DNA of 64,000 nucleotides from Candidatus Udaeobacter sp. (GTDB lineage Bacteria > Patescibacteriota > Patescibacteriia > Magasanikbacterales > GWA2-37-8), in the NCBI GenBank assembly GCA_035473115.1, contig DATION010000006.1, positions 64,521 through 128,520 of the forward strand. Direction: 5' to 3'. The position numbers were made by a program, and so were the translations under genes. Under the pieces are notes generated by a model. That model saw only the letters and a list, made by a program, of their open reading frames with translations. It was not told the DNA's origin and did not search any database. Of the stretch, positions 21,573 to 51,514 are shown piece after piece. Position 1 is the first letter of the stretch; each line of letters begins with the position of its first letter.

Positions 21573-21611
21573 GCAATCTATAATTAAAAATTAAGAATCA
21601 GCAAAAAATTG

Positions 21612-21620
21612 TGGTATAAT
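21612..21620 (+). promoter_or_regulatory. Extended -10 element (TGgTATAAT) 7 nt before the ATG of surface protein 3: possible leaderless transcript
   Basis: TGGTATAAT at 21612-21620, ATG at 21627, and no SD in between. Confidence 0.3.
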
Positions 21621-21626
21621 ATCTAT

Positions 21627-24600
21627 ATGTTGAAAAGAAAAAAAATACTCCTTTCTTTGTTAATAATAGTGGCAGCACTTAGTTTTTTAGTTTATCAAAA
21701 AGTCAGAGCTGCCAATGCCCCGGCTCTTAAAGAAGGAACTTATTTAACTGGCCAAACTCTAAGCGTCTGGCCATCATGGTCATTACTGAGCAATGCTCTT
21801 GGAGTTACTTTACCAACAGATCCTATCAATCAACTGGCTACAGCTGGGACTTGTGCCACTACTACCAACAGATTTTGTACAGCCGATAATCAGTGTCCGG
21901 CTGGTGAAGCCTGTGTTTTGCATGATCCGGAAACTGGCTGGAGTGTAGCTGATAGACGTTTTACCTTTGCTTGTTCCAAAGATTCTTATGCTTATCGCTA
22001 TTTTGCTTCCACCACGCCCGGCGCTTTTACAGTACGAGCTCACTTTGAAGATCCGGGGATTGCTCCGGGTAATTTCAATAGTTTTGTAGCCAGTTTTGTC
22101 AGTACTAGCATTGTTAAAATAAATGACAGCAGCGGTATCTGTAATTTTGATCAGGAAATTTCTTCTATCCAATCCGGTACTTGCGGCGATGGCAAATTAA
22201 ATTTAAACAAAGGCGAGCAATGTGACCCTCCGGGCAGAATTGAATACGCTAATGGCTGTGTGGGCAGTATTAAAAATTTAAATGTTTGCAGTAAAACTTG
22301 CCAGTGGACTCCATCTACAACGTTATGCAGTAATTTAAGTAAATGCGGCAACGGCTCGGTAGAGTTCGGAGAAACTTGCGATGACGGAAATTTAAATGGA
22401 AAGTATAATCACTGCAATACAACTTGTAATGGTGTTAGCGCTCTCGGAAAATGCGGCGACAACGTTTTGCAATCAGCTTATGAAGTTTGCGATCCGGGTA
22501 CACCGGGAAAAGAAAAGTATGCCACCAGTAAAGCAGCTTCTTGTAGTTGGGATTGTCAGAGTTTTGGCCCATACTGCGACGATAATACTGTTCAGTCTTC
22601 ATATGGAGAAGAGTGTGATGGTTCCCAAACTTGTTCGATCGATGGTAAACCAGGAACAAGGATTTGCAATGGCTGTTTGAAAAAAGATGATGATGCTGTG
22701 GCTTGGTGGCGCTTTGAGCAGCTAACAACTTCTGGACAAACAGGCCAGACAACTGATGGATCTATAAATGGTAATACTGCAACTTGCAGTATGGCAACTT
22801 GTCCTACAGTAGACAATGGAAAGTATGGTCATGATTTCATTTTTTCTAAAAATTCCGGCAATAGTAGCAATGCTAATGTAGATTCTTTTGCCGCCAATAA
22901 TGGTGATCCGGTGATAATAGATACTAACCCAGGTCCGTCTGGAAATACAACAAATTTAGTTGATCCTCATTTTTTAACTGTGTCTAATAGCCAGAGTCTT
23001 AATCCAATTAGTTCATTAACTGTTGAAGCCTGGATTTTTCCAACAGATATCAATGCTTTGTACCAGAGAATTATAGAAAAAGGCGGACCAGGAACAGGCA
23101 AAGGTTATGATTTAGAATTTAATTTATCTGCCACAGCTCATACGGTACGCTTTAATTTATGGAATGGAACACAAACTTCAGTAGATTCAAATAGTCAGAT
23201 CCCTCTTAATACCTGGACTCATATAGTTGGTACTTACACCAGAAGCGGCAACTCAAATATTATTAAGATTTATATTAACGGAGTTTTAGAAAATACAGTT
23301 ACAAACAGCAGTGCTGTGCCATCTATGGCCAAAGATGCGGGTAATTTAGCAATTGGCAAATCTGCCACCATTAGTGATAATTTTTTCTTTGGCAGCTTAG
23401 ACGAAGTAAAAATTTATAATCGCGCTTTATTAGCTTCCGAAGTGCAAAATAATTTTCAGAGCGGCTGGTTTTGCGCAGCTACTACTACTCCGGAAAGCTT
23501 GCCTGCCAGTGTTGGTAAATGCGGTGATGGTGTTATAAATATAAATGAAGTCTGTGATTCAGGCACAGGCAGTGTAGTAGATACAATCCCGGGTCCTTTA
23601 GGAACTCCAACAAGTCCGGGTATGTTCTCGATTAATTCAGCCGGCGGTAAAAAAATTACAGTTCATGAAAATGTTATTAGTACTACAGGTTGTTTTTCTG
23701 ATAACGCTACCGGTCGGGCGGCTTGTTCATCTAATTCTTGGGATTATAAAATTCCTTTTGATCAAGCGGGCAAGTATAGAGTTAAGTTTATTACTTCTAA
23801 TTACACTCAAAACTTAACTAGTAGTTCGTTTTCTAATGACCACTCCGAAGCTTTTTGTTCAGCTCCGGGTATTCAGCATCATATTGTAGTTTCTTTAGAC
23901 GGTGTAAAAGTAGGGGAGGACTGTGTGAATGCGGATTCTGCTCCTCAACATAGCCAGGCTTTTGATTTCAATATTAATTCATCAGGAAATCACACCTTAT
24001 CATTAGCTTGGGATAATGACTGGTATGCTCCTAATTTTTATGGCCCTAACTCAGCTGCTGATTCAAATATAAATATAAATAAAATTGAATTGATTCAAGG
24101 TGTCAGTAATGGCGAGCCTTGTGTACCAACTTATGGAAAGCCATGTGCTTATTGCGCAGCTGATTGTCAAAACACTATTGATGTTCAGCCTTTGCAGTAC
24201 TGCGGCAATGGAATTATTGAAGGCTCAGAAAGATGTGAAGTGGCCAATAATTTTATTTATAGCCCCACTTCTACTCCTGGTCGCACTGTGTCCACAAAAG
24301 ATGCGGCTTATAATGGCTACCGAGAATTAGCTTGCGCCAATGAGCCGGCTGCGCCTCATACTATAAATAAGGGTATCAAAACTTGCGCTAGCTGTGCTGC
24401 GGGCGTAGTTAGAAATTGTGTCAAATGTGGTCCTGATGTTAATGGCGTAAAAGTAAATGGCGGCATAATAAATGTTTTAGATAATCCGATCATAGATAAG
24501 GCTAGCAGTATTTCTCAAGATCCTCTTTTTATTAAAAAAGTTGCTGCTGGCGTTGGGCTTAGTTTGTCAGTCAGTTTATGCAAAAGCCCGGCTGGAGCAT

Positions 24601-26111
24601 TATTATGTTCAAGTTTAGTTGATCCGTTGTCGCCACTAGTGGCAGTTGCTCTAAAAAATATTAACTCAGATCCAATTTCTTATGTTCTGGGTGATTTACC
24701 AAGTAGTGGAGCCAATCCGGCGCTGCTTAGCAGTGATCCGGTATGTTCTGTCAGCGACACCTTTAATGATAAGTACCAGCTATATGTTAACAGCGATTGG
24801 ACTCGGCCATTAAATTTCCCGGTAGTGGCCGAACCGCAATCTTCACAGTATGATTTAGTTTTATCACCGGTTGTTTCTAAGACCAATCGTCCAAAAGATT
24901 TGCGAGTAGTGGTAAGCTGGATTGGTTCCGGTGATCTTTATAGTGGAGTTTTAAATCCATTTTTACCTAATCCGCAAACTGTTCCGCCAACTAGTCCGCA
25001 AATAGAAGGCGCTAACTTTTATGATGGTTCATCTTATCAATATGCTACAGGCGTAAATTATTATAATTCTCCGGATATCTTTAAAAAATTTGCTGTTTGG
25101 TATCATGGTTTTAATTTTACACCTGGCCAGACTATGAGTGAGGCTTTTACCCTTGATACTTCAGCTATGTCCGGCAATACCTATTCTTTTTATGTTCGTT
25201 CTCCAAGTTTCCCAATCAGAATCTTTAGAGGCACAGCCAAATTAAAAGCAGAGGTTTATTTGCCGGAAGATGATAATAATCAATATCATTTTGGCACGCC
25301 ACTAAAGACCTATTATCTTTCTTTTGCGACCCCTTCGGATAATCAAAATGCTCGTTATTGGCAAGTGTTTAATGTCAACCAACCACTACCATCTGCAGGT
25401 TTGGCAGCCTCAGATATTTTAGATATCAATGCCATAGTAAGCAGTCCGGATCGTTTTGTCTATAATAATCCGCTTATTCCTAATGCTACCTGCACAGACC
25501 TGGATTGGAGCAGATCGCCAAGCGCCACTCCTGCTTGCCCTGCATCCGGTTCATGGACTTATAACTGGACAAAGATAACCAATTGTGTCAATGGAGTAAA
25601 GCACCCGCCTGTAGAAGTGATAGCTTGTCCGATTTGCACAGCTGCTGACTGGGTCAGATCTCCGGCTACCAATCCGCCTACCTGTCCGCCATCCGGAGCT
25701 TGGACAATTAATTGGACAAAGATAGGAAATTGTACGGCTGGAGTTCAACATCAGCCTGTAGAAACTATTGGCTGCAAGCCATGCACAGATGCTGACTGGA
25801 CCAGTAGCCCTACCTATAATTCTAATTGTACTCAAGTTGGCACTGTTGTTTATACTTGGACAAAGATAGGGCAGTGCACTGGCGGTGTAACACATGTATC
25901 GCCTCAATCAGTTACCTGCAGAGCTTGTACAGGGGCTGATTATCAGAGATTCCCTGCCGTTGATCCGCCGTGTATTGAGCCGGAAGGTTGGCCAGTTACA
26001 TGGGTAAAAACAGCGAATTGTGCGGATGTAAATCGTCCTGTAGATTTATTTTGTAATTGCATACCAGATGAAAATGCGAGAAGGTATATTGTCAGATGTA
26101 GAGCAAATTAA
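21627..26111 (+). CDS. Giant surface protein 3 (~1494 aa): signal peptide, Cys-rich repeats, LamG/ConA-like domain, novel C-terminal Cys/Trp repeats
   Basis: MLKRKKILLSLLIIVAALSFLV signal/anchor. CGNGSVEFGETCDDGN-type repeats. LTVEAWIFPTD...WTHIVGTY...IKIYINGVLE matches the laminin-G_3 jelly-roll. Four ~41-aa repeats fill the last ~190 aa. Confidence 0.85.
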   Translation: MLKRKKILLSLLIIVAALSFLVYQKVRAANAPALKEGTYLTGQTLSVWPSWSLLSNALGVTLPTDPINQLATAGTCATTTNRFCTADNQCPAGEACVLHDPETGWSVADRRFTFACSKDSYAYRYFASTTPGAFTVRAHFEDPGIAPGNFNSFVASFVSTSIVKINDSSGICNFDQEISSIQSGTCGDGKLNLNKGEQCDPPGRIEYANGCVGSIKNLNVCSKTCQWTPSTTLCSNLSKCGNGSVEFGETCDDGNLNGKYNHCNTTCNGVSALGKCGDNVLQSAYEVCDPGTPGKEKYATSKAASCSWDCQSFGPYCDDNTVQSSYGEECDGSQTCSIDGKPGTRICNGCLKKDDDAVAWWRFEQLTTSGQTGQTTDGSINGNTATCSMATCPTVDNGKYGHDFIFSKNSGNSSNANVDSFAANNGDPVIIDTNPGPSGNTTNLVDPHFLTVSNSQSLNPISSLTVEAWIFPTDINALYQRIIEKGGPGTGKGYDLEFNLSATAHTVRFNLWNGTQTSVDSNSQIPLNTWTHIVGTYTRSGNSNIIKIYINGVLENTVTNSSAVPSMAKDAGNLAIGKSATISDNFFFGSLDEVKIYNRALLASEVQNNFQSGWFCAATTTPESLPASVGKCGDGVININEVCDSGTGSVVDTIPGPLGTPTSPGMFSINSAGGKKITVHENVISTTGCFSDNATGRAACSSNSWDYKIPFDQAGKYRVKFITSNYTQNLTSSSFSNDHSEAFCSAPGIQHHIVVSLDGVKVGEDCVNADSAPQHSQAFDFNINSSGNHTLSLAWDNDWYAPNFYGPNSAADSNININKIELIQGVSNGEPCVPTYGKPCAYCAADCQNTIDVQPLQYCGNGIIEGSERCEVANNFIYSPTSTPGRTVSTKDAAYNGYRELACANEPAAPHTINKGIKTCASCAAGVVRNCVKCGPDVNGVKVNGGIINVLDNPIIDKASSISQDPLFIKKVAAGVGLSLSVSLCKSPAGALLCSSLVDPLSPLVAVALKNINSDPISYVLGDLPSSGANPALLSSDPVCSVSDTFNDKYQLYVNSDWTRPLNFPVVAEPQSSQYDLVLSPVVSKTNRPKDLRVVVSWIGSGDLYSGVLNPFLPNPQTVPPTSPQIEGANFYDGSSYQYATGVNYYNSPDIFKKFAVWYHGFNFTPGQTMSEAFTLDTSAMSGNTYSFYVRSPSFPIRIFRGTAKLKAEVYLPEDDNNQYHFGTPLKTYYLSFATPSDNQNARYWQVFNVNQPLPSAGLAASDILDINAIVSSPDRFVYNNPLIPNATCTDLDWSRSPSATPACPASGSWTYNWTKITNCVNGVKHPPVEVIACPICTAADWVRSPATNPPTCPPSGAWTINWTKIGNCTAGVQHQPVETIGCKPCTDADWTSSPTYNSNCTQVGTVVYTWTKIGQCTGGVTHVSPQSVTCRACTGADYQRFPAVDPPCIEPEGWPVTWVKTANCADVNRPVDLFCNCIPDENARRYIVRCRAN

Positions 26112-42103: not shown

Positions 42104-42400
42104 ATGTCATTAAATTGGAAAATAATCTTGCCGATTATCGTCCTTGTTATCGGGGTCGGCGCGGTAATAAAATATAAAAATAGTTATCCAAGGCCAGCAG
42201 CAGAAAATTTGCAAACCCAGCAGCAGGAATCAGAAGAAAAATATTCATACGACCAGAATTCGCCGCCGCTCACCGACGCGGAAATAAACGCTTTTGTGAA
42301 GGCTGCCAGCATTGAATCGGCTGTTGAGACTGAAGAAGAAAAAGATAGTGTGTTAGTAACTTCGGATAATCAAGCTTTAAATAATTTTAATAATTTATAG
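42104..42400 (+). CDS. Hypothetical small membrane-anchored protein
   Basis: N-terminal TM helix, then an acidic tail. Confidence 0.4.
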   Translation: MSLNWKIILPIIVLVIGVGAVIKYKNSYPRPAAENLQTQQQESEEKYSYDQNSPPLTDAEINAFVKAASIESAVETEEEKDSVLVTSDNQALNNFNNL

Positions 42401-42461: not shown

Positions 42462-43601
42462 ATGTACCATCAAGTCTCCAAAAGGGCAGTCGGTTTAGCA
42501 ATGACATTTGCTTTGTTGGCCAATGTGGCAGCATTGCCTGTTTTAGCCGAAGAAACAGGTTCTGCTTCTACTGTGGTAAAAACCAGATCAGAAGTTAATT
42601 TTTGTACTCGTTTAGAACAGTCTTCTACCAAACTAGACAGTAACATGGCTGATCGAACAAAAAAATTAGACGATCAATCTAATTTAAGAAATACTAATTT
42701 AGAAAAAAATCGCTCTGATCGCGATGAAAAGTTAACTGAACAGAGATCTAATTCTGATAAAAATGTTGCTGAGCGTTACGCTAAAATGGAAGGCAAAGCA
42801 AAAAATGATGCTCAAAGAATCGCTCTAGAAAATTTCCATACAGCCATGCTAGCTGCTCTTAACACCAGAAAAGCGGCTTTTGATGCTGCTCGGACCACTT
42901 TTCGAGCCGGTATAGATGAAGCGATTGCTGCTCGCAAAGCTGCTATACAGTCTGCCGTAAGATCTTTCCAGACAGCTTTAAAAGATGCTGAAACAAAAGC
43001 TAAAGCTGATTGTGCGGGTGGAGTTGCTCCGGCAACTGCTAAGACCAATTTTGAAACTGCTGTCAAAACTGCTCGGGAAAAATTTGCGGCTGATCGCAAA
43101 GCGGTAGAAAGATTAGGTGTTAATTTAAAAACATTAACTGACGCGCGCAAAACAGCTCTAGACAAAGCTCGGGCTGACTTTAAAGCTGCCGTTGAAAAAG
43201 CTACTAAAGACCTAAAAGCTGCTTTGCTGGCAGCTAGACCAGTTAAAACAATTAATAAAGATGGTGATCACAAGACAACAACAACTGTTAGAAATGACGA
43301 CAATCAAAAAACAGAAGAACCTAAAGAAGTTAAGCCGGAACATGAACCTAAAAAGGTTGCCTTACAAATTGTCGGCTCTGCTTTTCAACCACTAAGTCAA
43401 TCTGTGGTCAAAGGCGATACGGTTGTTTGGACAAACAATGATTCTGTACCTCACACTGTAACGGCGGCTGACGGATCATTTGATAGTGGCACTATCTCTC
43501 CGGGAGCTTCTTATAGTCACACTTTTACTTCAGTTGGAACTGTTAGTTATTCTTGCGCGTTTCATCCTTCAATGCATGGCAGTGTAACTGTAACTGAGTA
43601 G
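42462..43601 (+). CDS. Secreted Ala/Lys-rich coiled-coil protein with C-terminal type-1 copper (cupredoxin/plastocyanin-like) domain
   Basis: Signal peptide and a ~230-aa amphipathic helical region. C-terminal domain with Cu ligands H (VPHTVTA) and C-x2-H-x4-M (YSCAFHPSMHG). Confidence 0.75.
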   Translation: MYHQVSKRAVGLAMTFALLANVAALPVLAEETGSASTVVKTRSEVNFCTRLEQSSTKLDSNMADRTKKLDDQSNLRNTNLEKNRSDRDEKLTEQRSNSDKNVAERYAKMEGKAKNDAQRIALENFHTAMLAALNTRKAAFDAARTTFRAGIDEAIAARKAAIQSAVRSFQTALKDAETKAKADCAGGVAPATAKTNFETAVKTAREKFAADRKAVERLGVNLKTLTDARKTALDKARADFKAAVEKATKDLKAALLAARPVKTINKDGDHKTTTTVRNDDNQKTEEPKEVKPEHEPKKVALQIVGSAFQPLSQSVVKGDTVVWTNNDSVPHTVTAADGSFDSGTISPGASYSHTFTSVGTVSYSCAFHPSMHGSVTVTE

Positions 43602-43614: not shown

Positions 43615-46047
43615 ATGTTTATAGCCCGCCTGAAACAATCGCTAAATATTAAATATTTCATGGCGGGCTATTTGTGCCTGTTGGTATTATTGGCATCTTT
43701 TTACTTTAAAGACTTGGTAATTTTTGCGGATGGAATTTTATTGGTAGCGCTTTATACTGGTTTTGATCTTTTATGGACCTATGCCCGAGACCGAGTCTGG
43801 TATTTGCCGACATCAGCTTGGATATCCGGTTTTGTTTTAACAATTGGCGCTTTTCCTAAACCGCCGCTGTTAGTTTTAATCGTTCTTCCTTTACTGGCCG
43901 TAGCTTCAAAACAGCTGCTGCATTTTGGTAAAAATCGTCATTTGTTTAATCCGGCTGCTTTTGCTTTGGCAGTAATAAGTTTGTTTAATCCAGCTGTTTC
44001 TTGGTGGGCCGTGGCCGGAGCAGTATTGCCTACAATTGCCGGTCTGCAAAAATTAGATTTGGGAATGTGGTTGTTTTTGTTTACATTTTTTGCGGCTCTA
44101 ATTATTTTGTGGAAACAAAATCGTTGGCATATTACTTTGCCTTTTTTATTTTCTTATGCTTTTTTTATCGGAGTGTTTTCTTTGGTTAACGGCGTAGTTT
44201 TGGGCAGGTTGCCGAATGTCCTTTTTTTTCAGATAGCCAATGGCGCAGTTCTTTTCTTTTCTACGGTAATGGTGATTGAGCCGATTACTTCAACTTTTTC
44301 AACTAAGCGGCAGGAAATATTATATGGAGCGATGGTTGGTCTGGCAGCTGTAGTGATAATTTATTTTTCTCGTAAGTTTAATTTGGTTAATTTAGACCCG
44401 TTGGTTTTTGGACTTTTAAGTGGAAATTTAATAGCCGGACTTATGTTTTTGCCGGCCCGAAAATTAGCTAAGAATTCATCTGTTAAAAAAGGCTGTTCAA
44501 GTTGTGTTGATTGCAGTTGCAAAGAAGCTGCGCCGGCAAAAATTTCCAGAGAGCCCTCTTATTGGTTTAGAGATGTGCCGGACCAAAATCGGTTTCCGGT
44601 TTTACAAGGTGATAAAGAATTTGATGCCGTAATTGTGGGTGGCGGTATTGCCGGTGTAGCGGTGGCATATTTTTTGGCAAAAAATGGCTTGAGCGCGGCG
44701 GTGCTTGAAGCCGGCACTATCGGCAGCGGTGATTCCAGCTATACTACCGCTTGCGCTACTCGTTTTCTTGATTCGGTTGATGCCAGTTTAAAAGCTTGGG
44801 AAAGCAGCGCCGAAGCTATCGCGATGCTGAAAAAAATAGTTGAAGAAGAGAATATAGATTGCGATTGGCAAGATGTTGATACGATCTGTTTTTCTCGGGA
44901 AACAGATAAAAAATCTTTGAATAATTTTTTGGCCACAGCGCAAAAATTTCAATCTAAGGACAGCTCAATTGAATATTTAGTTAAAGATGAAGCCAGCGCT
45001 TCGGTTGGTGTTCCCGTATCGGCAGCTTATCAAAAAAAATCCGCTGAAGGCATGTTTCATATGCGCAAGCTTTTAATGGCTTTGGCAGAAAGAGCAATAA
45101 AAAACGGAGCTTTATTTTTTGAAGATAGCGAGGCTACTAATTTTACTTTTGGTGATCAGGTCGTAGTTAAAACAAAAAAGGGGGGTATCAAGGCAAAATG
45201 GCTTATTGTCGCCACTGGTTTGCCGCCAGTAAAGTTTTTTCCGGCAGTTAGCAAATTGCTGCGCAGTGCAGTTAGTTATGTTATTGATGTAAAGTTTGCA
45301 GAAAAACCGCCGTTTGCTAAAGCATTTTTTTGGGATGATCAAGATCCATACCATTATTTTCGTTCAGTTGCTGAAAATGAATTTATTTTGGGCGGTGAAG
45401 ATTGGAAAACAAATAGCTCTAAGCCGGATTTAAATCCGCATTTGCAATTGGAAAAATGGTTTAAAAATCTTGTTGGCAGACAGGCATCGTTTAAAGTAGT
45501 TAATAGTTGGCAAGGTTCACTTTTTTATACGCCAGATACTTTGCCTCTGGTCGGGCCTCATCCGAAATACGGAAAAAATATTATTTTTTTAACTGGCTGG
45601 GCTGGGAACGGCACAGCGCAAGGTGTTTTTGCGGCTAGTATGGCAGTTAGTATTATTCAGAAAAAAAATAATCCTTATTATCATCTGTTTGCCTGCGATC
45701 GCAAGTTGTCTTGGCCAGTTGAAAATAATTCAGGTAATTTGTCTGTTTTAGCAAGTGTTGAGACTGGCGCGCTGGCAAAAGAATATTTAGAAAATAAAGG
45801 CAAAATTTTGGAAGTGGCCGGGCAAAAATTAGCGGTGATAAAAACTAACGGGAAGATCAAAGCTTTTTCAGCTCTCTGTCCACACCTTGGCTGTGCTGTT
45901 GGCTGGAATGACACCGAAAACACTTGGGATTGCCCTTGCCACGGGTCACGTTTTGAGTCTGATGGTTCACTTAAGAATGGTCCGGCTAAACGCGGGCTTG
46001 ATCCGGTGGAAATTAAGCTAGAAAATGATCAGATTAAAATTGTTTAA
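43615..46047 (+). CDS. Three-module membrane redox protein: RnfD/NqrB-like polytopic domain + FAD-dependent oxidoreductase + Rieske [2Fe-2S] domain
   Basis: [12 protein letters not shown] and [25 protein letters not shown] resemble the RnfD motifs GQNPFNPAM and [31 protein letters not shown] Cys cluster. [22 protein letters not shown] Rossmann motif. CPHLGC...CPCHGS Rieske motif. Confidence 0.75.
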   Translation: [810 protein letters not shown]

Positions 46048-46148: not shown

Positions 46149-47012
46149 ATGGAAAGTTTGTGCGCAGTATGTGGGAAAAATCATCCTACCGGAGCATGTG
46201 TTGACCAGTCAAGAAAAGAAGTAGAGCAAAACGCTGAGCGTCGTTTGCCAGGAATTAACAAAACAGAAGGTAGAGGGGGATTAAAAGGACTTCTTAATAA
46301 AGATAAAAAACTTTTAACTGTATTGGACGTTTTACAGATGGATGCAATTGCAGAAAACACCCAGCGAGATTCAGATGCTATGCTTAGAGCGCAAGAGGCG
46401 GAAACAGAAAGAAAACAAAGAATGTATAAGCGTGGTCCAGAGAATAATTCTGCCGAAATAAAAGAGCAGAACCTTCAGGCTTTTGTTGCCACTCATGAGC
46501 CTTGGCTGATTGCCAAAAAAGATAGCGCAGGCATAGATACCCATGATTTATTGGTAAGATTGGGGCTTGAACCAAAGCCAGCCGGATCAGATTTTAAGGC
46601 ATTTGCTAAGCTGTTTTATGAAATTGAGCCTCCAGCAGGCTGGTCTAAAACCACTGATAATTATGATACTGAAGTCAGAGATGAAGATGGTAATATAGTT
46701 TTGGAACAGTTTTTTAAAGGCGCATTGTCAGGTATGAAAGCAGAATTAAAAACTTTATCACCTGTCAGTGAGTCCACACAAGAAATTAAAGCTAGAAAAT
46801 TACCAAAGAATTTTGTTGACAGACTGGCGGCTTTGGAAAAAATGAAGAATGACAAGCAGGATCAGGAATTATATAAAATCACAATCGGCAGATTAGCAGA
46901 GATGGCCGCAGGTAGGCTAGAAGCCGGGTTTAAAACCGGTGCTTATAACGGCTGGCAAGAGGCAGATTTTTTGGAATTGCTAAAACAGCTAGGAGAAGAG
47001 CGGGTTGGGTAA
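46149..47012 (+). CDS. Hypothetical protein with N-terminal CxxC...C motif
   Basis: 287-aa ORF, CAVCGKNHPTGAC. No other motif recognised. Confidence 0.45.
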   Translation: MESLCAVCGKNHPTGACVDQSRKEVEQNAERRLPGINKTEGRGGLKGLLNKDKKLLTVLDVLQMDAIAENTQRDSDAMLRAQEAETERKQRMYKRGPENNSAEIKEQNLQAFVATHEPWLIAKKDSAGIDTHDLLVRLGLEPKPAGSDFKAFAKLFYEIEPPAGWSKTTDNYDTEVRDEDGNIVLEQFFKGALSGMKAELKTLSPVSESTQEIKARKLPKNFVDRLAALEKMKNDKQDQELYKITIGRLAEMAAGRLEAGFKTGAYNGWQEADFLELLKQLGEERVG

Positions 47013-47045: not shown

Positions 47046-47074
47046 ATTGACAAAAAGGTCATTTTGTGGTATGA
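47046..47074 (+). promoter_or_regulatory. Consensus sigma70-like promoter with extended -10 for the cold-shock gene
   Basis: TTGACA (47046-47051), a 17-nt spacer ending in TGG, then TATGAT (47069-47074). About 80-nt leader. Confidence 0.6.
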
Positions 47075-47152
47075 TATATTCATCAAAAATCTCCCAGGTG
47101 GAAAAATAGTCGACTCCTACCGGCGATTAATTTATTCATTATATTTTTTATT

Positions 47153-47353
47153 ATGACAGGTGTTATAAAAACATTAGTTGTAGAAAAGAATTTTGGTTTC
47201 ATCACTCCAGATGACGGTTCGAAAGATATCTTCTTTCACGCTACCGCTTTGAGTGGTATCCAATTTTCTGAATTAAGACAAGGTGACAGAGTGTCATTTG
47301 ACGTTGAAGATTCAGAAAAAGGCCCTCGCGCTGCAAACGTTGTTCGCGCTTAA
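47153..47353 (+). CDS. cspA: Cold-shock domain protein
   Basis: GFGFITPDDGSKDIFFHATAL (RNP1 and RNP2 motifs), 66 aa. Confidence 0.9.
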   Translation: MTGVIKTLVVEKNFGFITPDDGSKDIFFHATALSGIQFSELRQGDRVSFDVEDSEKGPRAANVVRA

Positions 47354-47371
47354 TAGGTCTAAATCTACAAA

Positions 47372-47402
47372 CAAAAAATCCTCTTTAGAAGAGGATTTTT
47401 TG
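47372..47402. terminator. Bidirectional terminator between csp and the convergent YcnI-like gene
   Basis: ATCCTCTT-cta-AAGAGGAT with an A-run before and a T-run after. Confidence 0.6.
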
Positions 47403-47413
47403 TTGTTTTTTTA

Positions 47414-48079
47414 TTAAGCTTTCTTTGTTTTTATTAGGGCAGTTAAAGCTATTAAGGTAGCAATAACGCTGAGCCAAATTGCTATATTTGTTTTTAAGTT
47501 CTCTGAGGTAGTGTTTGAGTTGACAGAGGTCGTAGGCGTTAAGTCATCGATCACTTCTGTTTTTGAGAATGGTCCAAACTTAGAAAAATCCATTTTATCA
47601 TTACTGTTTTTAGTTTGGGTTTGGTTGGGGTCTTGGTCCCAAGAAATTACTGTGCCGTCCGCGTAGGTCTGATAGACCTTCCAATTTAAAACAGTTGGCT
47701 GGCTTGGCACTTTGGCGCTAAAGACAAATTCATCACGCTGATCGGCAGGAACTCTGCCGCCACTCCAAATTATCTCGGTTATTTTTTGTTCATCAACCAT
47801 CCTACCGTCATCATCTTTGGTTTTGTTTCCCGTGATCTGTTTTTTGAGTTCAATTTTCCAGCCCGGTTTTACATTAGGCATGATAAAGCTTAAGCCTTCA
47901 GGCAAAACCAGACGAACTTTAGTGGTAGCCACCGGTTTTTCTGATGGAATTCCTAAATTAAAAGTTTGAAATTTGCCAATTCCAGCTGTATTTGGTTTTA
48001 CCACCGCGTGGGCCATGGCTTGGTTAGCAAAGAGTAATGATGCTGCTAGAATTCCCAGTCCAACTATTTTTTTATTCAT
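47414..48079 (-). CDS. YcnI-like (DUF1775) secreted copper-binding protein with C-terminal TM anchor
   Basis: Signal peptide ...ANQAMA then HAVVKPNTAGIGKFQTFNLGIPSEK, resembling the DUF1775 N-terminus HVxVxP...Y/FQTFxxRVPNEK. His is the first mature residue. C-terminal helix IAIWLSVIATLIALTALI. Confidence 0.6.
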   Translation of the reverse strand: MNKKIVGLGILAASLLFANQAMAHAVVKPNTAGIGKFQTFNLGIPSEKPVATTKVRLVLPEGLSFIMPNVKPGWKIELKKQITGNKTKDDDGRMVDEQKITEIIWSGGRVPADQRDEFVFSAKVPSQPTVLNWKVYQTYADGTVISWDQDPNQTQTKNSNDKMDFSKFGPFSKTEVIDDLTPTTSVNSNTTSENLKTNIAIWLSVIATLIALTALIKTKKA

Positions 48080-48083: not shown

Positions 48084-48623
48084 TCATTTATTAGTAAATA
48101 TCTTTTTTGTTAAATATATTATAGCTCCTAACATTACAGTAGTTGCCGCATAAAATAACCAGTTTATTTGGGCAGATGATTTTACTGCGGTAGAATCTTT
48201 ATCTAATCGAATGTCATAGGCTAAGTTAAAACTTTGAAAACTGTTGGTTTGGATTGGAGTGCCGGTAAGTTTAATAGTGTAAATTCCTTTATGCGGAAAA
48301 GTATAGGTAATTGCCGGGGCAAAAATACCTTTATAGGATGATCTGCTTTTGGAAAGAGGGGAGGAAAATATTATTTTATTAGTGGTTAAGTCTGTAATAG
48401 AAGCAATACAATTACAGTTATCCGGTACAAATGTTTTTTTGGCATCAGTAATTAAAAATAGCAGATCGGCCGGCTGGCCAACTATTGGGTCATCATCGGG
48501 GTTGATATGCAGCAGTGCATAAATTGAACCGTCGGCCATTAGCTCATGAGCTTGAGCGGGGGAGCAAAGAAAAAATAAACTTGCCCATAACAAAACTATG
48601 AAAGTGGTAAGTTGTTTATGCAT
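48084..48623 (-). CDS. Secreted protein with His as first mature residue (His-brace/CopC-like candidate) and C-terminal TM anchor
   Basis: Signal peptide ...CSPAQA then HELMADGSIYALLH. CNC pair. C-terminal helix. Confidence 0.45.
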   Translation of the reverse strand: MHKQLTTFIVLLWASLFFLCSPAQAHELMADGSIYALLHINPDDDPIVGQPADLLFLITDAKKTFVPDNCNCIASITDLTTNKIIFSSPLSKSRSSYKGIFAPAITYTFPHKGIYTIKLTGTPIQTNSFQSFNLAYDIRLDKDSTAVKSSAQINWLFYAATTVMLGAIIYLTKKIFTNK

Positions 48624-48778: not shown

Positions 48779-49216
48779 ATGAAGGCTAAAAAGATAATTC
48801 TCTCGGTTTTTTTGGTTTTGGTCGTGGCTGCTTATGCTGTTTATCAGCGTTTAGGCGGTTCATCTCAGTCTAATACTCGTACTACAGAAACAAACACCAA
48901 TACTAATACAAACAACAATCAAAATAATCAGGTTGCCTATAAAGACGGCGAATATACCGGAACTGACGCAGACACGATTTTTGGCAAAGTACAAGTTTCT
49001 GTATTGGTTAAAGATGGCAAAATTGTCGATGTTAAATTTTTAGATTTTCCTAAGGATCAGCTTACTTCCAAAAGTATCAGTAATCACTCTTTGCCTATTT
49101 TAAAGACCGAAGTGATTGCCGCTCAAAATGAGAATGTTGATATTGTTTCCGGAGCTACCCAGACTAGCGAAGGCTTTAAACAATCTTTGGCTTCAGCTTT
49201 AGTAAAAGCAAAATAA
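48779..49216 (+). CDS. Secreted FMN-binding domain protein (flavinylation substrate)
   Basis: N-terminal TM/signal, T/N-rich linker, FMN_bind domain YKDGEYTGTDADTIFGKVQVSVLVKDGKIVDVKFL...VDIVSGATQTSEG with the S-G-A-T flavinylation motif. Confidence 0.8.
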   Translation: MKAKKIILSVFLVLVVAAYAVYQRLGGSSQSNTRTTETNTNTNTNNNQNNQVAYKDGEYTGTDADTIFGKVQVSVLVKDGKIVDVKFLDFPKDQLTSKSISNHSLPILKTEVIAAQNENVDIVSGATQTSEGFKQSLASALVKAK

Positions 49217-49230: not shown

Positions 49231-49977
49231 GTGCTCAAACAAACCAGACTGTTAATGGGCATGCCTATTACCGTAGAAATTTGCGATTTGTCCGCTAATT
49301 CAGAAGCGGTAGATAAAGTTTTTGATTACTTTGATTACGTGGACAAAAAATTCAGTACTTATAAAGACGATAGCGAGATAAGCGGAATTAATAATGGAAA
49401 AATTCGGGAGAAAGATTATAGCGCTGACATGAAAGAGGTTTTTGGGCTTTGCGAGCAGACAAAAAAAGAAACAAACGGATATTTTGATATCCAGTTGAAA
49501 AATAAAACATACGACCCGTCAGGCTTGGTAAAAGGCTGGGCAGTTTATAATGCCGCCGAAATTTTACGTAAACTTGGCTTTAATAATTTTTACGTCGAAG
49601 CCGGAGGTGATATTCAGGTGAGTGGCCAAAATAGCCAAGGCCAAAATTGGCGTATTGGCATCCGCCATCCTTTTAATGAATCGCAAATAATCAAGACTGT
49701 CTCGTTAAGTAGCGAAGGCGTAGCCACTTCCGGAACTTATATTCGCGGCCAGCATATCTATAACCCATACGATGACAAAAAACCGATTACGGAAATTGTC
49801 AGTTTGACCGTCATCGGGCCAAATATTTATGAAGCTGATCGGTTTGCTACAGCGGCTTTCGCTATGGGCAAAAAGGGGATTAATTTTATTGAAAGTTTAA
49901 AAAATTTAGAAGGGTATATGGTGGACAAAGACGGTGTGGCTACTATGACCAGTAATTTTGAAAAATATTTAGCTTAG
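49231..49977 (+). CDS. apbE: FAD:protein FMN transferase (ApbE family)
   Basis: LMGMPITVEI, FSTYKDDSEISGIN, GGDIQVSG and VATSGTYIRGQHIYNP are ApbE hallmarks. Confidence 0.85.
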   Translation: MLKQTRLLMGMPITVEICDLSANSEAVDKVFDYFDYVDKKFSTYKDDSEISGINNGKIREKDYSADMKEVFGLCEQTKKETNGYFDIQLKNKTYDPSGLVKGWAVYNAAEILRKLGFNNFYVEAGGDIQVSGQNSQGQNWRIGIRHPFNESQIIKTVSLSSEGVATSGTYIRGQHIYNPYDDKKPITEIVSLTVIGPNIYEADRFATAAFAMGKKGINFIESLKNLEGYMVDKDGVATMTSNFEKYLA

Positions 49978-49993: not shown

Positions 49994-51514
49994 ATGCTTA
50001 AATTCATTGATCAATTCCTGAATCGGATCACGATGTATCGGTTGGTTCTTTATTATGTATCCGGTCTGTGGGTGATCGCATTTATTTTCAGTTTATTGCA
50101 CATTTTGCCGCATGCGCCGTTTGATTTGTTAGTCTCGGCTATAATTATTCACGCTGTCGGTTTTTTAGTTAATGCTATTTTTGCTCGTATTTTTCAGGTT
50201 CCCAGCAATCTGGAATCAGTATATACGACCGGCTTTATTCTGGCTCTCATTATTTCTCCGGCCCAGCCGTTTAGCCGGCTGTTGTTTTTGGGTTTAGCCG
50301 CAACTCTGGCTATGGCTTCAAAATATATTATTGCGATTAATAAAAAGCATCTGTTTAACCCGGCAGCTTTTGCCATCGCATCTGCAGCTATTGTCGCCGG
50401 ACAATCAGCCAATTGGTGGGTGGGCAATCTGTATATGGCGCCATTTGTTCTGCTCGGAGGATTTTTAATGGTCAAAAAATTGCGCCGCTGGGATTTGGTT
50501 TTAAGTTTTTTTGTAGTCGCTATTGCTGTTATCTCAACCTCTTTCTTTTTAAAGAAAAGCGATATGATGCTGATATTAAAAGAGGTTCTGTTTTATTCGC
50601 CGATGTTCTTTTTTGCCTGTGTGATGCTTACCGAACCGATGACTACACCGCCATCGAGAAACTTAAGAATAATTTATGGCGCTTTGACCGGTTTTTTGTT
50701 TGCTCCGTTTATGCATCTGGGGTCAATTTATTCAACGCCCGAATTAGCTCTTTTGGCCGGTAATATTTTTGTGTATATTGTCAGCCCAAAGTATAAATTA
50801 ATTTTAGAATTAAAAGAAAAAGTTTTAATTGCTCCGGATGTGTATGATTTTTTGTTTAAGCAAGATAAAAAAATGGTATTTAAGCCGGGCCAGTATATGG
50901 AATGGACTTTAGGGCATGAAGACCAGGATTCCAGAGGTATGAGACGGTATTTTACAATTGCTTCTTCTCCGGCCGAAGAATATTTAAGAATGGGTGTAAA
51001 ATTTTATCCTAATGCCAGCAGTTTTAAAAAATCTATCTTGCATCTGGAACCAGGCGACAAGATTATTGCTTCTCAACTGGCCGGTGATTTTGTTTTGCCT
51101 AGTAATAAAGATAAAAAATTAGTTTTTATAGCCGGCGGTATTGGCATTACTCCTTTTCGGAGCATGGTAAAAGATCTTTTGGATAGAAAAGAAAAAAGAG
51201 ATATAATTTTGATTTATTCAAACTACAGACCAGTCGATATCGTTTATCGAGATGTTTTGGATCAGGCCGAGCGAGAACTGGGAATTAAAACAATTTATAC
51301 GGTGACAGATTTGGCATCTTGTCCGGATGATTGGCCATGTGAACGAGGTTTTATTGATGAACAAAAAATTATGCGTTTAATCCCGGATTATAAAGAAAGA
51401 ACTTTTTATCTATCCGGTTCTCATTCAATGGTAGTTGCGTTTGATGAAAATCTGCGCAAGATAGGAATTAAAAAAATGCAGATTAAAAAAGATTTTTTCC
51501 CTGGGTTTGTTTAA
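49994..51514 (+). CDS. RnfD/NqrB-like membrane domain fused to an FNR-type FAD/NAD(P)H oxidoreductase domain
   Basis: KHLFNPAAFAIAS and VMLTEPMTTPPSRNLRIIYGALTGF (RnfD-like). C-terminal RRYFTIASSP (RxYS FAD motif) and FIAGGIGITPFRSM (NAD-binding). Confidence 0.75.
   Translation: MLKFIDQFLNRITMYRLVLYYVSGLWVIAFIFSLLHILPHAPFDLLVSAIIIHAVGFLVNAIFARIFQVPSNLESVYTTGFILALIISPAQPFSRLLFLGLAATLAMASKYIIAINKKHLFNPAAFAIASAAIVAGQSANWWVGNLYMAPFVLLGGFLMVKKLRRWDLVLSFFVVAIAVISTSFFLKKSDMMLILKEVLFYSPMFFFACVMLTEPMTTPPSRNLRIIYGALTGFLFAPFMHLGSIYSTPELALLAGNIFVYIVSPKYKLILELKEKVLIAPDVYDFLFKQDKKMVFKPGQYMEWTLGHEDQDSRGMRRYFTIASSPAEEYLRMGVKFYPNASSFKKSILHLEPGDKIIASQLAGDFVLPSNKDKKLVFIAGGIGITPFRSMVKDLLDRKEKRDIILIYSNYRPVDIVYRDVLDQAERELGIKTIYTVTDLASCPDDWPCERGFIDEQKIMRLIPDYKERTFYLSGSHSMVVAFDENLRKIGIKKMQIKKDFFPGFV

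What the first reader, a model, noticed from the sequence alone, without database searches (positions are those of the whole stretch)
43615..46047. Unusual three-module fusion: RnfD-like membrane domain + DAO-type FAD oxidoreductase + Rieske 2Fe-2S domain, paralogous to the ApbE-operon protein
The N-terminal ~290 aa are a paralog of the membrane domain of ORF 49994 ([12 protein letters not shown] versus [13 protein letters not shown], and [25 protein letters not shown] versus VMLTEPMTTPPSRNLRIIYGALTG). They are followed by a 4-Cys cluster (CSSCVDCSC), a Rossmann FAD-binding oxidoreductase domain ([12 protein letters not shown]) and a C-terminal Rieske motif (CPHLGC...CPCHGS). FAD-oxidoreductase-Rieske fusions are known as soluble proteins. 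An RnfD-like membrane domain in front is, as far as I know, not described. Two paralogous RnfD-like domains fused to different redox partners within 8 kb point to a modular membrane electron-transfer system.
Basis: partly seen in the sequence, partly recalled or inferred. Interest (0 to 1): 0.7.

Follow-up and report, generated by a model that had tools for sequence, protein, structure and literature searches.

The report
Membrane flavoprotein wired to a copper protein
The gene is a real fusion of an RnfD-like membrane domain, an FAD enzyme and a Rieske iron-sulfur domain, and across ultra-small (CPR) bacteria these parts almost always sit beside a secreted blue copper protein, which suggests a previously undescribed wire carrying electrons out of cells that lack a normal respiratory chain.

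Summary
ORF 43615-46047 (+) encodes 810 aa: a 10-helix NqrB/RnfD-like membrane domain, a DAO-family FAD domain and a bc1/b6f-type Rieske domain. Its membrane domain is paralogous to that of ORF 49994 (BLASTP E 2e-10).

The interpretation needs correcting in three ways.
- ORF 49994 with ApbE and FMN_bind is the already published "NQR/RNF-like" system.
- The "4-Cys cluster" is not conserved.
- The likely partner of the target is not the ApbE operon. It is the secreted type-1 copper cupredoxin gene that ends 13 nt upstream (42462-43601).

Among 79 distinct RnfD-like loci, almost all with CPR/Patescibacteria record titles, a cupredoxin lies within 2.5 kb in 9 of 11 DAO-fused loci. The same holds for 24 of 52 standalone and 7 of 16 FNR-fused loci. 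Of 41 gene pairs, 30 are on the same strand with a gap of 60 nt or less. Rieske and DAO also occur as separate adjacent genes. One relative fuses the membrane domain to a CuA-like cupredoxin.

Best reading (inferred): a quinone- and cytochrome-independent conduit running from cytoplasmic FAD to Rieske, to flavin in the RnfD-like domain, to external copper. The substrate, the membrane cofactor and the terminal acceptor are unknown. I rate it a new variant of a known kind, of moderately high interest.

The parts
42104..42400 (+). Small ORF (98 aa, one N-terminal hydrophobic helix) upstream of the cupredoxin gene. Possible first gene of the operon.
   Evidence: ORF list. It is conserved at the same position in the Parcubacteria locus L001 (tblastx 53% identity). 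A ~104-aa family recurs in 9 loci of the closest clade. Function unknown.
42462..43601 (+). Secreted cupredoxin protein (379 aa): signal peptide, a ~260-aa Ala/Lys-rich helical spacer and a C-terminal type-1 copper domain. Proposed extracytoplasmic electron acceptor of the target.
   Evidence: Pfam Copper-bind (E 9e-7) and Cupredoxin_1 at aa 293-377. The N-terminus is hydrophobic, and the ligand pattern is PHTV ... C-A-F-H-P-S-M, i.e. C-x2-H-x2-M. The gene ends 13 nt before the target with no terminator between them. Orthologues sit immediately upstream of the target homologue in L001 (61% identity) and in L003, L004, L006, L010, L011, L041 and L043.
43338..43598 (+). Type-1 copper cupredoxin domain of ORF 42462 (aa 293-379).
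   Evidence: It is 54% identical over 80 aa to the 146-aa lipoprotein cupredoxin that precedes a standalone RnfD-like gene in L007.
43615..46047 (+). Target ORF, 810 aa: RnfD-like membrane domain + DAO-type FAD oxidoreductase + Rieske [2Fe-2S] domain.
43648..44448 (+). NqrB/RnfD-like membrane domain (aa ~12-278), about 10 helices, both ends cytoplasmic. It lacks the flavinylated-Thr loop.
44494..44520 (+). Cys-rich linker CSSCVDCSC (aa 294-302). Non-conserved accessory feature in a low-confidence linker.
   Evidence: C-x2-C-x-C occurs in about 10 of 20 homologues and is absent in the rest. pLDDT is below 50 for aa 280-322.
44623..45642 (+). DAO-family FAD-dependent oxidoreductase domain (aa 337-676), cytoplasmic.
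   Evidence: Pfam DAO E 8.6e-45. The nearest solved relatives are glycine oxidase ThiO and sarcosine oxidase beta. All NCBIfam equivalog scores are far below their cut-offs.
45781..46044 (+). Rieske [2Fe-2S] domain (aa 723-810) with bc1/b6f-type boxes CPHLGC and CPCHGS.
   Evidence: Pfam Rieske E 9.1e-15. The best PDB matches are small soluble Rieske proteins and b6f PetC. The domain is a separate 81-97-aa gene without signal peptide in split versions.
47370..47404 (.). Terminator-like hairpin (16 bp stem) that separates the cupredoxin/target transcription unit from the ApbE cluster.
48779..49216 (+). FMN_bind (NqrC/RnfG-like) protein with the flavinylation motif VSGATQTS. Part of the neighbouring, already described NQR/RNF-like system.
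   Evidence: Pfam FMN_bind E 2.8e-9. The motif is seen in the translation.
49231..49977 (+). ApbE flavin transferase of the neighbouring system.
   Evidence: Pfam ApbE E 6.6e-43.
49994..51514 (+). Paralogue: RnfD-like membrane domain + FNR-type FAD/NAD(P)H reductase (506 aa). This is the published 'NQR/RNF-like' subunit.
   Evidence: Pfam PF03116 at 38.2 bits plus NAD_binding_1 at E 1.4e-13. It matches the definition in PMC8238504.

Best explanation
The target is the fully fused form of a four-part, CPR-specific transmembrane electron conduit. The parts are a cytoplasmic flavoprotein dehydrogenase (here DAO-type FAD), a cytoplasmic Rieske [2Fe-2S] carrier, an NqrB/RnfD-like 10-helix membrane module, and an extracytoplasmic cupredoxin (here the type-1 copper protein encoded 13 nt upstream).

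Proposed path: an unknown substrate is oxidised at the FAD. Single electrons pass to the Rieske cluster. They cross the membrane through the RnfD-like domain, most likely on non-covalently bound flavin(s), by analogy with the riboflavin/FMN pair of RnfD/NqrB. They then reduce Cu(II) of the tethered cupredoxin, which hands them to an unidentified terminal acceptor.

Shown: the domain architecture, the homology, the inside location of DAO and Rieske, the outside location of the cupredoxin, and the genetic coupling of the modules.

Inferred: the direction of flow, flavin as the membrane cofactor, the substrate and the terminal acceptor.
For: (1) Architecture and homology.
(2) Topology. The segments before helix 1 and after helix 10 are K/R-rich. 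A relative (P0138) needs one extra transmembrane helix after the RnfD-like domain to place its fused cupredoxin outside. The FNR-fused paralogues need cytoplasmic NAD(P)H. Same-strand split Rieske genes encode 81-97 aa proteins with no hydrophobic N-terminus.
(3) Gene coupling. A cupredoxin lies within 2.5 kb in 9 of 11 distinct DAO-fused loci (7 of 8 with both flanks), 24 of 52 standalone loci and 7 of 16 FNR-fused loci. There are 41 distinct cupredoxin/RnfD-like pairs; 36 are on the same strand and 30 have a gap of 60 nt or less. Unsupervised clustering of neighbouring genes finds cupredoxin as the only widely recurrent extra family, in 48 loci.
(4) Fusion and fission. The modules occur as RnfD+DAO+Rieske, as RnfD+DAO with a separate Rieske (L005), as cupredoxin-RnfD-Rieske with DAO on the opposite strand (L013, L014), as RnfD-cupredoxin-DAO-Rieske as four genes (L064, Pfam-verified), and as RnfD+TM+CuA-like cupredoxin (P0138).
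(5) Of 41 partner cupredoxins, 39 have a signal or lipoprotein N-terminus. All partners of the DAO-fused type found in these loci keep the C-x2-H-x2-M copper loop.
(6) Interchangeable ends. FNR, DAO+Rieske or an OYE/FAD protein (L007) occur inside. Cupredoxin or ApbE-flavinylated FMN_bind occur outside; 12 of 15 FNR-fused loci have one or the other.
(7) Precedent. In RnfD the riboflavin exchanges electrons with a cytoplasmic Fe-S cluster of RnfC, and the outer flavin exchanges with an extracytoplasmic carrier (PMC12174285). The published NQR/RNF-like model proposes unidirectional outward flow and a non-covalent flavin site (PMC10979944).
(8) No His, Cys or Met is conserved across the membrane family: the invariant or ≥90%-conserved residues are N112, W130, P223, L267, A95, K99, P113, A114, F214, F215, M219 (a single Met; no conserved ligand pair), E222 and T225. 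This argues against a haem, Fe-S or copper wire and leaves flavin as the only precedent.
Against: - No cofactor of the membrane domain is demonstrated. The covalent-FMN Thr loop is absent.
- The AlphaFold models are only moderate (pLDDT 72 and 64, pTM 0.53 and 0.58), and I could not inspect inter-domain geometry.
- The terminal acceptor is unknown. No NirK or multicopper-oxidase-like ORF was found in any flank.
- One fused locus with full flanks (L005) has no cupredoxin nearby.
- About half of the standalone loci with flanks show none.
- The Rieske boxes carry the extra Cys pair typical of P-side high-potential Rieske proteins, which is odd for a cytoplasmic domain.
- The DAO substrate is unknown. 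The Arg of ThiO's G-L-R-P motif aligns to Leu.
- Loci were retrieved by peptide patterns, so the sample is biased towards relatives of this protein.
- Outward electron flow with cytoplasmic proton release would not by itself conserve energy.
Confidence: 0.55

Rival explanations
1. One reading: the target is a second input module of the neighbouring ApbE/FMN_bind system. Electrons from DAO-Rieske would cross its RnfD-like domain and reduce the flavinylated FMN_bind protein (48779), not the cupredoxin.
For: The ApbE/FMN_bind/RnfD-FNR cluster lies downstream of the target in the window (2.7 kb away), in L001 (0.5 kb away) and in L040 (0.5 kb away). This is the closest clade. The published AlphaFold-multimer model docks an NqrC-like FMN domain onto an RnfD-like subunit.
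Against: In the window the two units are separated by a terminator hairpin and a convergent gene pair. L004 belongs to the same clade and shows the same synteny, yet lacks the ApbE cluster while keeping the cupredoxin. FMN_bind/ApbE lie within 2.5 kb in only 2 of 11 DAO-fused loci and 0 of 52 standalone loci, against 9 of 11 and 24 of 52 for cupredoxin. In the FNR-fused loci sampled, cupredoxin (7 of 16) and ApbE/FMN_bind (5 of 16) appear as alternative neighbours; none has both.
Confidence: 0.15
2. Transporter-enzyme fusion: the RnfD-like domain has reverted to, or kept, the solute-channel function of its Amt/urea-transporter relatives. It would import an amine that the fused DAO enzyme oxidises. 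The Rieske would pass electrons to a cytoplasmic acceptor.
Against: This view does not explain the operonic coupling to secreted cupredoxin, CuA or FMN_bind redox proteins. It also does not explain why FNR, DAO+Rieske and OYE modules are interchangeable on the inside. The top structural and sequence matches are RnfD, not the transporters. F214 aligns with NqrB F338, one of the two Phe residues that the review describes as blocking a continuous channel.
Confidence: 0.08
3. Copper handling rather than respiration-like electron disposal: the module reduces Cu(II) to Cu(I) at the cell surface, or keeps a copper chaperone or cupredoxin reduced, for copper uptake or detoxification.
For: The window carries a YcnI/DUF1775 copper-binding protein (47414-48079) and a second secreted protein next to it whose mature N-terminus is probably a His (48084-48623). 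L001 carries CsoR-like, DUF305 and HMA/DsbD/cupredoxin genes about 9 kb downstream. Many partners of the more distant relatives have an H-[DN]-H motif and no Cys, so they are not classical electron-transfer cupredoxins. The published NQR/RNF-like clusters were linked to iron assimilation in a few cases.
Against: The YcnI pair is an insertion absent from the collinear L001 locus, and no copper-homeostasis family recurs among neighbours. The target's own partner has a complete type-1 site, a dedicated electron-transfer centre, and P0138 has a CuA-type site.
Confidence: 0.1
4. Inward flow: the cupredoxin is the donor and the Rieske-FAD part uses imported electrons to reduce a cytoplasmic substrate.
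For: RnfD/NqrB carry electrons inward, from the periplasmic FMN to the cytoplasmic side. Rnf is reversible.
Against: Type-1 copper and bc1-type Rieske centres are high-potential (established knowledge). Moving electrons from them to FAD, against a membrane potential that is negative inside, is uphill without an evident energy input. DAO-family enzymes are dehydrogenases or oxidases. FNR-fused paralogues with NAD(P)H as the obvious donor share the same cupredoxin partners.
Confidence: 0.05

Closest known systems
NQR/RNF-like system (Meheust et al. 2021, eLife, PMC8238504; Huang et al. 2024, PMC10979944)
   Same: It has an N-terminal NqrB/RnfD-like membrane domain without the flavinylated Thr, fused to a cytosolic flavoprotein reductase. 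It is proposed to carry electrons one way, outward. It is enriched in CPR. The window's ORF 49994 with 48779 and 49231 is a member of this system.
   Different: The target carries a DAO-type FAD domain plus a Rieske cluster instead of the FNR-type NAD(P)H module (PF00175). Its conserved extracytoplasmic partner is a type-1 copper cupredoxin rather than an ApbE-flavinylated FMN_bind protein. The eLife paper (PMC8238504) never mentions Rieske, cupredoxin or copper, and the 2024 preprint (PMC10979944) never mentions Rieske; it was not searched for cupredoxin.
RnfD / NqrB subunits of the Rnf and Na+-NQR complexes
   Same: Both have a 10-helix fold, the FNPA and (D/E)P-x-T-S motifs and one gate-Phe equivalent. 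Both sit between a cytoplasmic Fe-S or acceptor site and an extracytoplasmic redox carrier.
   Different: The target has no covalent-FMN loop. No RnfA/E/G/C/B or NqrA/C-F genes were seen beside it, and it is shorter. It is fused to its own dehydrogenase. Ion pumping is untested.
YhfW-type soluble FAD-oxidoreductase/Rieske fusions (Bacillus subtilis YhfW; P0024-P0026 here)
   Same: The order is DAO domain then C-terminal Rieske domain, with 28-30% identity over about 60% of the target. The function of YhfW is also unknown (PMC7317962).
   Different: Those proteins are about 506-512 aa and, given their length, lack the ~290-aa N-terminal membrane domain. They have no known cupredoxin link.
Cytochrome b6f / bc1 reducing plastocyanin, amicyanin-type or pseudoazurin carriers
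   Same: This is a functional analogy: a membrane complex containing a Rieske centre with the same CxHxGC / CPCHGS boxes delivers single electrons to a small blue copper protein on the outer side.
   Different: The target has no cytochrome b, cytochrome f/c1 or quinone sites. The Rieske is predicted to be on the cytoplasmic side, not the P side. The donor is a fused flavoenzyme rather than quinol.
NOX/FRE/MsrQ-type transmembrane reductases and NosR
   Same: The logic is the same: a cytoplasmic flavin/NAD(P)H module, a membrane wire and an extracytoplasmic metal or metalloprotein acceptor.
   Different: Those proteins use bis-haem or Fe-S/FMN membrane domains that are unrelated in fold to RnfD.

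Membership tests
NqrB/RnfD family (Pfam PF03116) | Significant sequence-profile similarity to the family | tested here: met
   32.8 bits against a gathering cut-off of 27.7. A family profile hits solved RnfD at E 8e-14 and NqrB at E 1e-9.
NqrB/RnfD family (Pfam PF03116) | 10-helix RnfD/NqrB fold | tested here: met
NqrB/RnfD family (Pfam PF03116) | Thr in an [S/T]GA[S/T] motif on the outer loop, carrying covalent FMN attached by ApbE | tested here: not met
   The target and 18 of its 19 aligned homologues have no such motif; P0015 has a lone TGAT in a different loop, taken as chance. The profile alignment to RnfD/NqrB skips the 44-73-residue loop that carries it. This agrees with PMC10979944 for RnfD-like subunits.
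NqrB/RnfD family (Pfam PF03116) | Encoded with RnfA/E/G/C/B or NqrA/C/D/E/F subunits | tested here: not met
   The annotated ORFs from 33 to 54.9 kb in the window include none. The called genes around homologues include none either. The rest of the genome was not examined.
NQR/RNF-like system (PMC8238504 definition) | [quoted passage not shown] | tested here: met
NQR/RNF-like system (PMC8238504 definition) | [quoted passage not shown] | tested here: not met
   The target has DAO plus Rieske instead. The paralogue ORF 49994 meets this feature.
NQR/RNF-like system (PMC8238504 definition) | Encoded within a flavinylation-associated (ApbE/FMN_bind) gene cluster | tested here: inconclusive
   In the window the cluster starts 2.7 kb downstream in a separate transcription unit. 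Across the family it lies within 2.5 kb in only 2 of 11 fused loci.
DAO family FAD-dependent oxidoreductases (PF01266) | Full-length DAO profile match with an N-terminal GxGxxG FAD Rossmann motif | tested here: met
   E 8.6e-45 over profile positions 1-349 of 353; GGGIAG at aa 342-347.
Glycine oxidase ThiO / sarcosine oxidase / pipecolate oxidase equivalogs (NCBIfam) | Score above the curated equivalog cut-off | tested here: not met
   ThiO 51.8 bits against 250.8. SoxB 42.9 against 529. AmaA 60.7 against 600. ThiO's W-A-G-L-R-P Arg aligns to Leu in the invariant W-Q-G-S-L-F. That this Arg binds the substrate carboxylate is from memory.
Rieske [2Fe-2S] domain (PF00355), bc1/b6f-type | C-x-H ... 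C-x-x-H ligands plus the second Cys of each box (CxHxGC / CPCHGS) | tested here: met
   CPHLGC at 755-760 and CPCHGS at 773-778. Pfam E 9.1e-15.
Cytochrome b6f PetC / bc1 Rieske subunit (NCBIfam equivalogs) | Score above cut-off and an N-terminal membrane anchor exported to the P side | tested here: not met
   PetC 62.5 bits against 250. bc1 Rieske 40.7 against 97.4. The domain is C-terminal to a cytoplasmic FAD domain.
Type-1 copper cupredoxin (partner ORF 42462) | Cupredoxin fold with His ... Cys-x2-His-x2-Met ligands and export signal | tested here: met
   Pfam Copper-bind/Cupredoxin_1. PHTV ... CAFHPSM and a hydrophobic N-terminus. Copper binding itself is not testable here.

The most novel reading that the evidence does not exclude
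The RnfD-like / Rieske / cupredoxin module, of which this gene is the fully fused form, is the unidentified 'non-classical' device that reduces plastocyanin-like cupredoxins in Patescibacteria. These bacteria lack complex III and often lack quinones. The module would then let them feed electrons from cytoplasmic flavoenzymes straight to copper enzymes such as NirK. The NqrB-like domain might also couple this flow to ion movement.
Probability: 0.25. Interest if true: 0.85.

Novelty: new variant of a known kind. Interest (0 to 1): 0.65.

Why it matters
CPR/Patescibacteria are usually described as fermenters without electron-transport chains. Yet many encode NirK and a single-domain 'plastocyanin', with no known way to reduce it. 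[quoted passage not shown]

The gene family found here is genetically coupled to cupredoxins in dozens of CPR lineages. It has the right topology and redox modules to be that link, so the question becomes directly testable.

It also widens the published NQR/RNF-like concept in two ways. There are new input modules (DAO+Rieske, OYE-type). There is a new output, copper instead of covalently bound flavin, so the RnfD fold would be a general, swappable transmembrane electron wire.

In practical terms, the membrane domain is missing from the precomputed Pfam domain lists of all but one of the 23 full-length relatives (PF03116 appears only for P0015). The proteins that carry a source name are called only 'FAD-dependent oxidoreductase', 'Rieske family iron-sulfur cluster-binding protein' or 'glycine/D-amino acid oxidase-like'.

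Tried and rejected
- A narrow profile of the N-terminal domain (A2) against PDB sequences gave no hit. A broader family profile (A3) was needed.
A2 was used instead.
- A Foldseek search of the full-length model against AFDB was unavailable. Model coordinates are not exposed, so I could not measure Rieske-to-membrane or FAD-to-Rieske distances.
- The 4-Cys cluster as a conserved Fe-S or metal site is rejected. It is absent from half the family and lies in a disordered linker.
- A covalent flavinylation site in the target is rejected.
- Assignment of the DAO domain to glycine, sarcosine or pipecolate oxidase equivalogs is rejected on score and on the missing Arg.
- A crude motif search for a terminal copper enzyme (ORFs of 250 aa or more with HCH plus HxH) across all 94 loci and the window found nothing relevant.
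- Clustering of neighbouring genes found no further conserved partner. Cupin_2 recurs only in three loci.
- Literature searches for RnfD/NqrB with cupredoxin or Rieske fusions found no description. The searchable library is limited to open-access papers.
- Caveat on my census: after three jackhmmer rounds the 'DAO' label drifted to other FAD Rossmann proteins, for example the OYE/pyr-redox protein of L007. DAO counts are therefore approximate. Key cases were re-checked with Pfam.
Full report
**Observation**

The window has an intact ORF at 43615-46047 (+) encoding 810 aa. Pfam finds three modules:
- NQR2_RnfD_RnfE at aa 20-252 (32.8 bits, gathering cut-off 27.7)
- DAO at aa 337-676 (E 8.6e-45)
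- Rieske at aa 723-794 (E 9.1e-15)

The fusion is not an artefact. About 20 homologues at 50-69% identity from four independent sources share the architecture, and 11 distinct fused loci were recovered.

**Host**

An identical protein is labelled 'Candidatus Udaeobacter sp.' in NCBI. However, the window is collinear, gene for gene, with a contig of Parcubacteria group bacterium Gr01-1014_13 (GatA 85%, Lgt 83%). Almost all relatives come from Patescibacteria/CPR MAGs. I therefore treat the host as a CPR bacterium.

**What is already known**

ORF 49994 combines an RnfD-like domain with an FNR-type NAD_binding_1 domain. The two genes before it are an FMN_bind gene carrying the flavinylation motif VSGATQTS and then ApbE. 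This matches the published definition of the 'NQR/RNF-like system': PF03116 N-terminal domain, PF00175 C-terminal domain, inside a flavinylation gene cluster. That system was reported in 127 genomes, mainly Actinobacteria and CPR (PMC8238504).

A follow-up paper showed that the flavinylated Thr is not conserved in these RnfD-like subunits. It proposed a non-covalent flavin site reached by the NqrC-like FMN (PMC10979944).

The eLife paper never mentions Rieske, cupredoxin or copper, and the 2024 preprint never mentions Rieske. The 2024 preprint was not searched for cupredoxin.

**Anatomy of the family** (alignment A1)

- The membrane domain is the most conserved part. Invariant features include F-G-K-N-R-H-x-F-N-P-A, the SWW motif, I-L-W-x-Q-x-x-x-H and the E-P-x-T-S motif.
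- The Cys run CSSCVDCSC is specific to this sequence. Close relatives have C-x2-C-x-C, and about half the family has no Cys there. The linker is disordered in the model (pLDDT below 50 for aa 280-322). It is not a core cofactor site.
- Six of the 20 aligned homologues end after the DAO domain. In the one such locus examined (L005), a separate 93-aa Rieske gene follows immediately. The Rieske is thus a constant functional partner, whether fused or not.
- The target and 18 of its 19 aligned homologues have no [ST]GA[ST] flavinylation motif; P0015 has a lone TGAT in a different loop, taken as chance.
- The profile alignment to RnfD/NqrB consists of two blocks. They skip the 44-73-residue outer loop that carries the covalent FMN.
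- E222 aligns with NqrB D346, and F214 aligns with NqrB F338. F338 is one of the two Phe residues that the RNF/NQR review describes as the channel constriction.

**Topology**

The model has about 10 long helices, as in RnfD/NqrB. Four lines of evidence place DAO and Rieske in the cytoplasm:
- The stretch before helix 1 (R5, K7, K13) and the stretch after helix 10 ([13 protein letters not shown]) are both K/R-rich, as expected for cytoplasmic ends.
- Relative P0138 has YSKRR after the domain, then one extra hydrophobic helix and a Pro/Thr linker before its fused cupredoxin.
- The FNR fusions must reach cytoplasmic NAD(P)H.
- The split Rieske genes on the same strand encode 81-97-aa proteins that start directly with the Rieske fold and have no hydrophobic N-terminus.

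**The unexpected partner**

A profile of the N-terminal domain was searched against 1.84 billion representative proteins and returned 770 hits. The nearest relatives are mostly standalone 250-290-aa membrane proteins. A few are ~505-aa FNR fusions. One (P0138) is fused to a cupredoxin domain with a CuA-type C-x3-C-x3-H-x2-M motif.

The best standalone relative (P0027) lies in the gene order OYE/FAD flavoprotein, cupredoxin, RnfD-like.

In the window, the gene that ends 13 nt before the target (42462-43601) encodes four parts:
- a signal peptide
- a ~260-aa Ala/Lys-rich helical spacer
- a C-terminal type-1 copper domain with the His of PHTV
- an amicyanin-like C-A-F-H-P-S-M copper loop

No terminator separates the two genes. 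The first strong hairpin is at 47370-47404.

**Census**

I collected loci by exact-protein look-up and by pattern scans of GTDB genomes and JGI metagenomes. I then searched their six-frame ORFs with the window's own modules. After removing duplicates there were 79 distinct RnfD-like loci.

| Class of RnfD-like gene | Distinct loci | Cupredoxin within 2.5 kb | Rieske (fused or within 2.5 kb) | FMN_bind/ApbE within 2.5 kb |
|---|---|---|---|---|
| DAO-fused | 11 | 9 (7 of 8 with both flanks) | 11 | 2 (2.7 kb away in the window itself) |
| Standalone | 52 | 24 (15 of 29 with flanks) | 16 | 0 |
| FNR-fused | 16 | 7 | 1 (L001, where the adjacent target homologue supplies it) | 5 |

Among FNR-fused loci with flanks, 12 of 15 have either cupredoxin or ApbE/FMN_bind.

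Further points from the census:
- Of 41 distinct cupredoxin/RnfD-like gene pairs, 36 are on the same strand and 30 are 60 nt or less apart.
- Unsupervised clustering of all neighbouring ORFs finds cupredoxin as the only widely recurrent extra family, in 48 loci.
- Of the 41 partners, 39 have a signal or lipoprotein N-terminus.
- All partners of the DAO-fused type found in these loci keep the C-x2-H-x2-M loop.
- Pfam confirms representative partners, split DAO genes (E 1e-51 to 1e-53) and a split Rieske gene.
- Gene orders include cupredoxin-RnfD-Rieske with DAO on the opposite strand (L013, L014), RnfD-Rieske-cupredoxin (L015), and RnfD-cupredoxin-DAO-Rieske as four separate genes (L064).

This repeated fusion, fission and shuffling of the same four modules is strong evidence that they work together.

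**Mechanism**

By analogy with RnfD, the outer FMN would exchange electrons with an extracytoplasmic carrier. The inner riboflavin, about 8 Å away, would exchange with a cytoplasmic Fe-S cluster of RnfC (PMC12174285).

I propose this path: substrate, then FAD (DAO domain), then Rieske [2Fe-2S], then flavin(s) held non-covalently in the RnfD-like domain, then Cu(II) of the tethered cupredoxin, then an unknown terminal acceptor.

No His, Cys or Met ligand pair is conserved across the membrane family. This argues against a haem, Fe-S or copper wire.

Outward direction is favoured for three reasons:
- DAO enzymes and FNR modules are electron sources.
- Type-1 copper and bc1-type Rieske centres are high-potential (established knowledge).
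- The published NQR/RNF-like model is also outward.

The steps that are shown are architecture, homology, topology and genetic coupling. Direction, the flavin cofactor, the substrate and the acceptor are all inferred.

The substrate is open. The nearest solved enzymes are glycine and sarcosine oxidases, but every NCBIfam equivalog score is far below its cut-off. The Arg of ThiO's G-L-R-P motif aligns to Leu. From memory, that Arg binds the substrate carboxylate.

**Weak points**

- No cofactor is demonstrated in the membrane domain.
- Model confidence is moderate, and I had no access to coordinates.
- L005 has no nearby cupredoxin.
- About half of the standalone loci show no cupredoxin.
- No terminal copper enzyme was found in any flank.
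- The Rieske boxes carry the Cys pair typical of P-side Rieske proteins.
- Locus sampling is biased by the peptide patterns used.

**Rivals**

Four alternatives are listed with their tests:
- an ApbE/FMN_bind partner, supported only by synteny in the closest clade
- a transporter-enzyme fusion
- a copper-handling role
- inward electron flow

**Significance**

A 2025 survey of Patescibacteria notes that NirK-bearing lineages encode a single-domain 'plastocyanin' but lack complex III. It concludes that an unidentified non-classical protein must reduce the cupredoxin (PMC12931201).

The module described here is a concrete candidate. I found no description of an RnfD/NqrB-like protein coupled to cupredoxin or to DAO+Rieske in the searchable literature.

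I classify it as a new variant of a known kind (the NQR/RNF-like conduit with new input and output modules). My interest score is 0.65.

Noticed in passing
window 42462-43601 (aa ~30-290): Between its signal peptide and its copper domain, the partner cupredoxin carries a ~260-aa Ala/Lys/Arg-rich, apparently all-helical spacer. The spacer is conserved (61% identity) in L001, L004 and L041-L044. Other clades use short 128-230-aa lipoproteins instead. It could act as a long tether that holds the copper domain far from the membrane.
   Followed up: partly
window 43615-46047 / P0001: The identical protein is labelled 'Candidatus Udaeobacter sp.' (Verrucomicrobia) in NCBI. The window is nevertheless collinear with a Parcubacteria contig (GatA 85%, Lgt 83% identity), and all relatives are CPR. 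The contig is probably mis-binned. Several relatives are likewise titled 'uncultured Gammaproteobacteria'.
   Followed up: partly
window 47414-48079 (-) and 48084-48623 (-): This is a YcnI/DUF1775 copper-binding protein plus an adjacent secreted protein with no Pfam hit. In both, a His follows the likely signal-peptide cleavage site (...AMA/HAV and ...AQA/HEL). Relative to the collinear L001 locus, the pair is inserted between the cold-shock gene and the FMN_bind gene. It may be a copper-handling pair.
   Followed up: no
loci L008, L020, L021, L024, L025, L028-L030, L032, L036, L037, L053, L062, L064, L072, L075: Many cupredoxin-fold partners of the more distant RnfD-like genes lack the type-1 Cys-His-Met loop. 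They carry a conserved H-[DN]-H-L-x-P-S motif instead. Pfam still calls them Cupredoxin_1 or Copper-bind. Their metal site and role are unknown.
   Followed up: partly
P0138 (385 aa, from the representative search): This protein is an RnfD-like domain followed by an extra transmembrane helix, a Pro/Thr linker and a cupredoxin domain with a CuA-type C-x3-C-x3-H-x2-M motif (Pfam COX2 E 2.8e-7). It is a Rosetta-stone fusion linking the membrane domain to an external copper centre.
   Followed up: partly
L007 580-2439: A 619-aa OYE (Oxidored_FMN) plus FAD/pyridine-nucleotide oxidoreductase sits directly upstream of cupredoxin and a standalone RnfD-like gene. It may be a third type of cytoplasmic input module.
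   Followed up: no
window 46149-47012 (+): This 287-aa ORF lies directly downstream of the target. Its N-terminus is C-x2-C...C, it has no Pfam hit, and it has no homologue in any of the 94 related loci. It looks like an insertion relative to L001.
   Followed up: partly
window 47144-47357 (+) and 47370-47404: A small cold-shock (CSD) gene has its own strong promoter-like site at 47047-47075. It is followed by a 16-bp-stem hairpin that looks like a bidirectional terminator shared with the convergent YcnI gene.
   Followed up: partly
L003 6377-6772, L005 5025-5423, L006 6796-7356: A small Cupin_2 protein recurs 0.6-3 kb upstream of the fused gene in three loci of the more distant clades. It is absent from the window's neighbourhood.
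   Followed up: no
window 12766-26111: These are very large ORFs (680, 2255 and 1500 aa). The first has T4SS-pilin-like and Ig-like domains. They are typical CPR surface proteins and unrelated to the finding.
   Followed up: no
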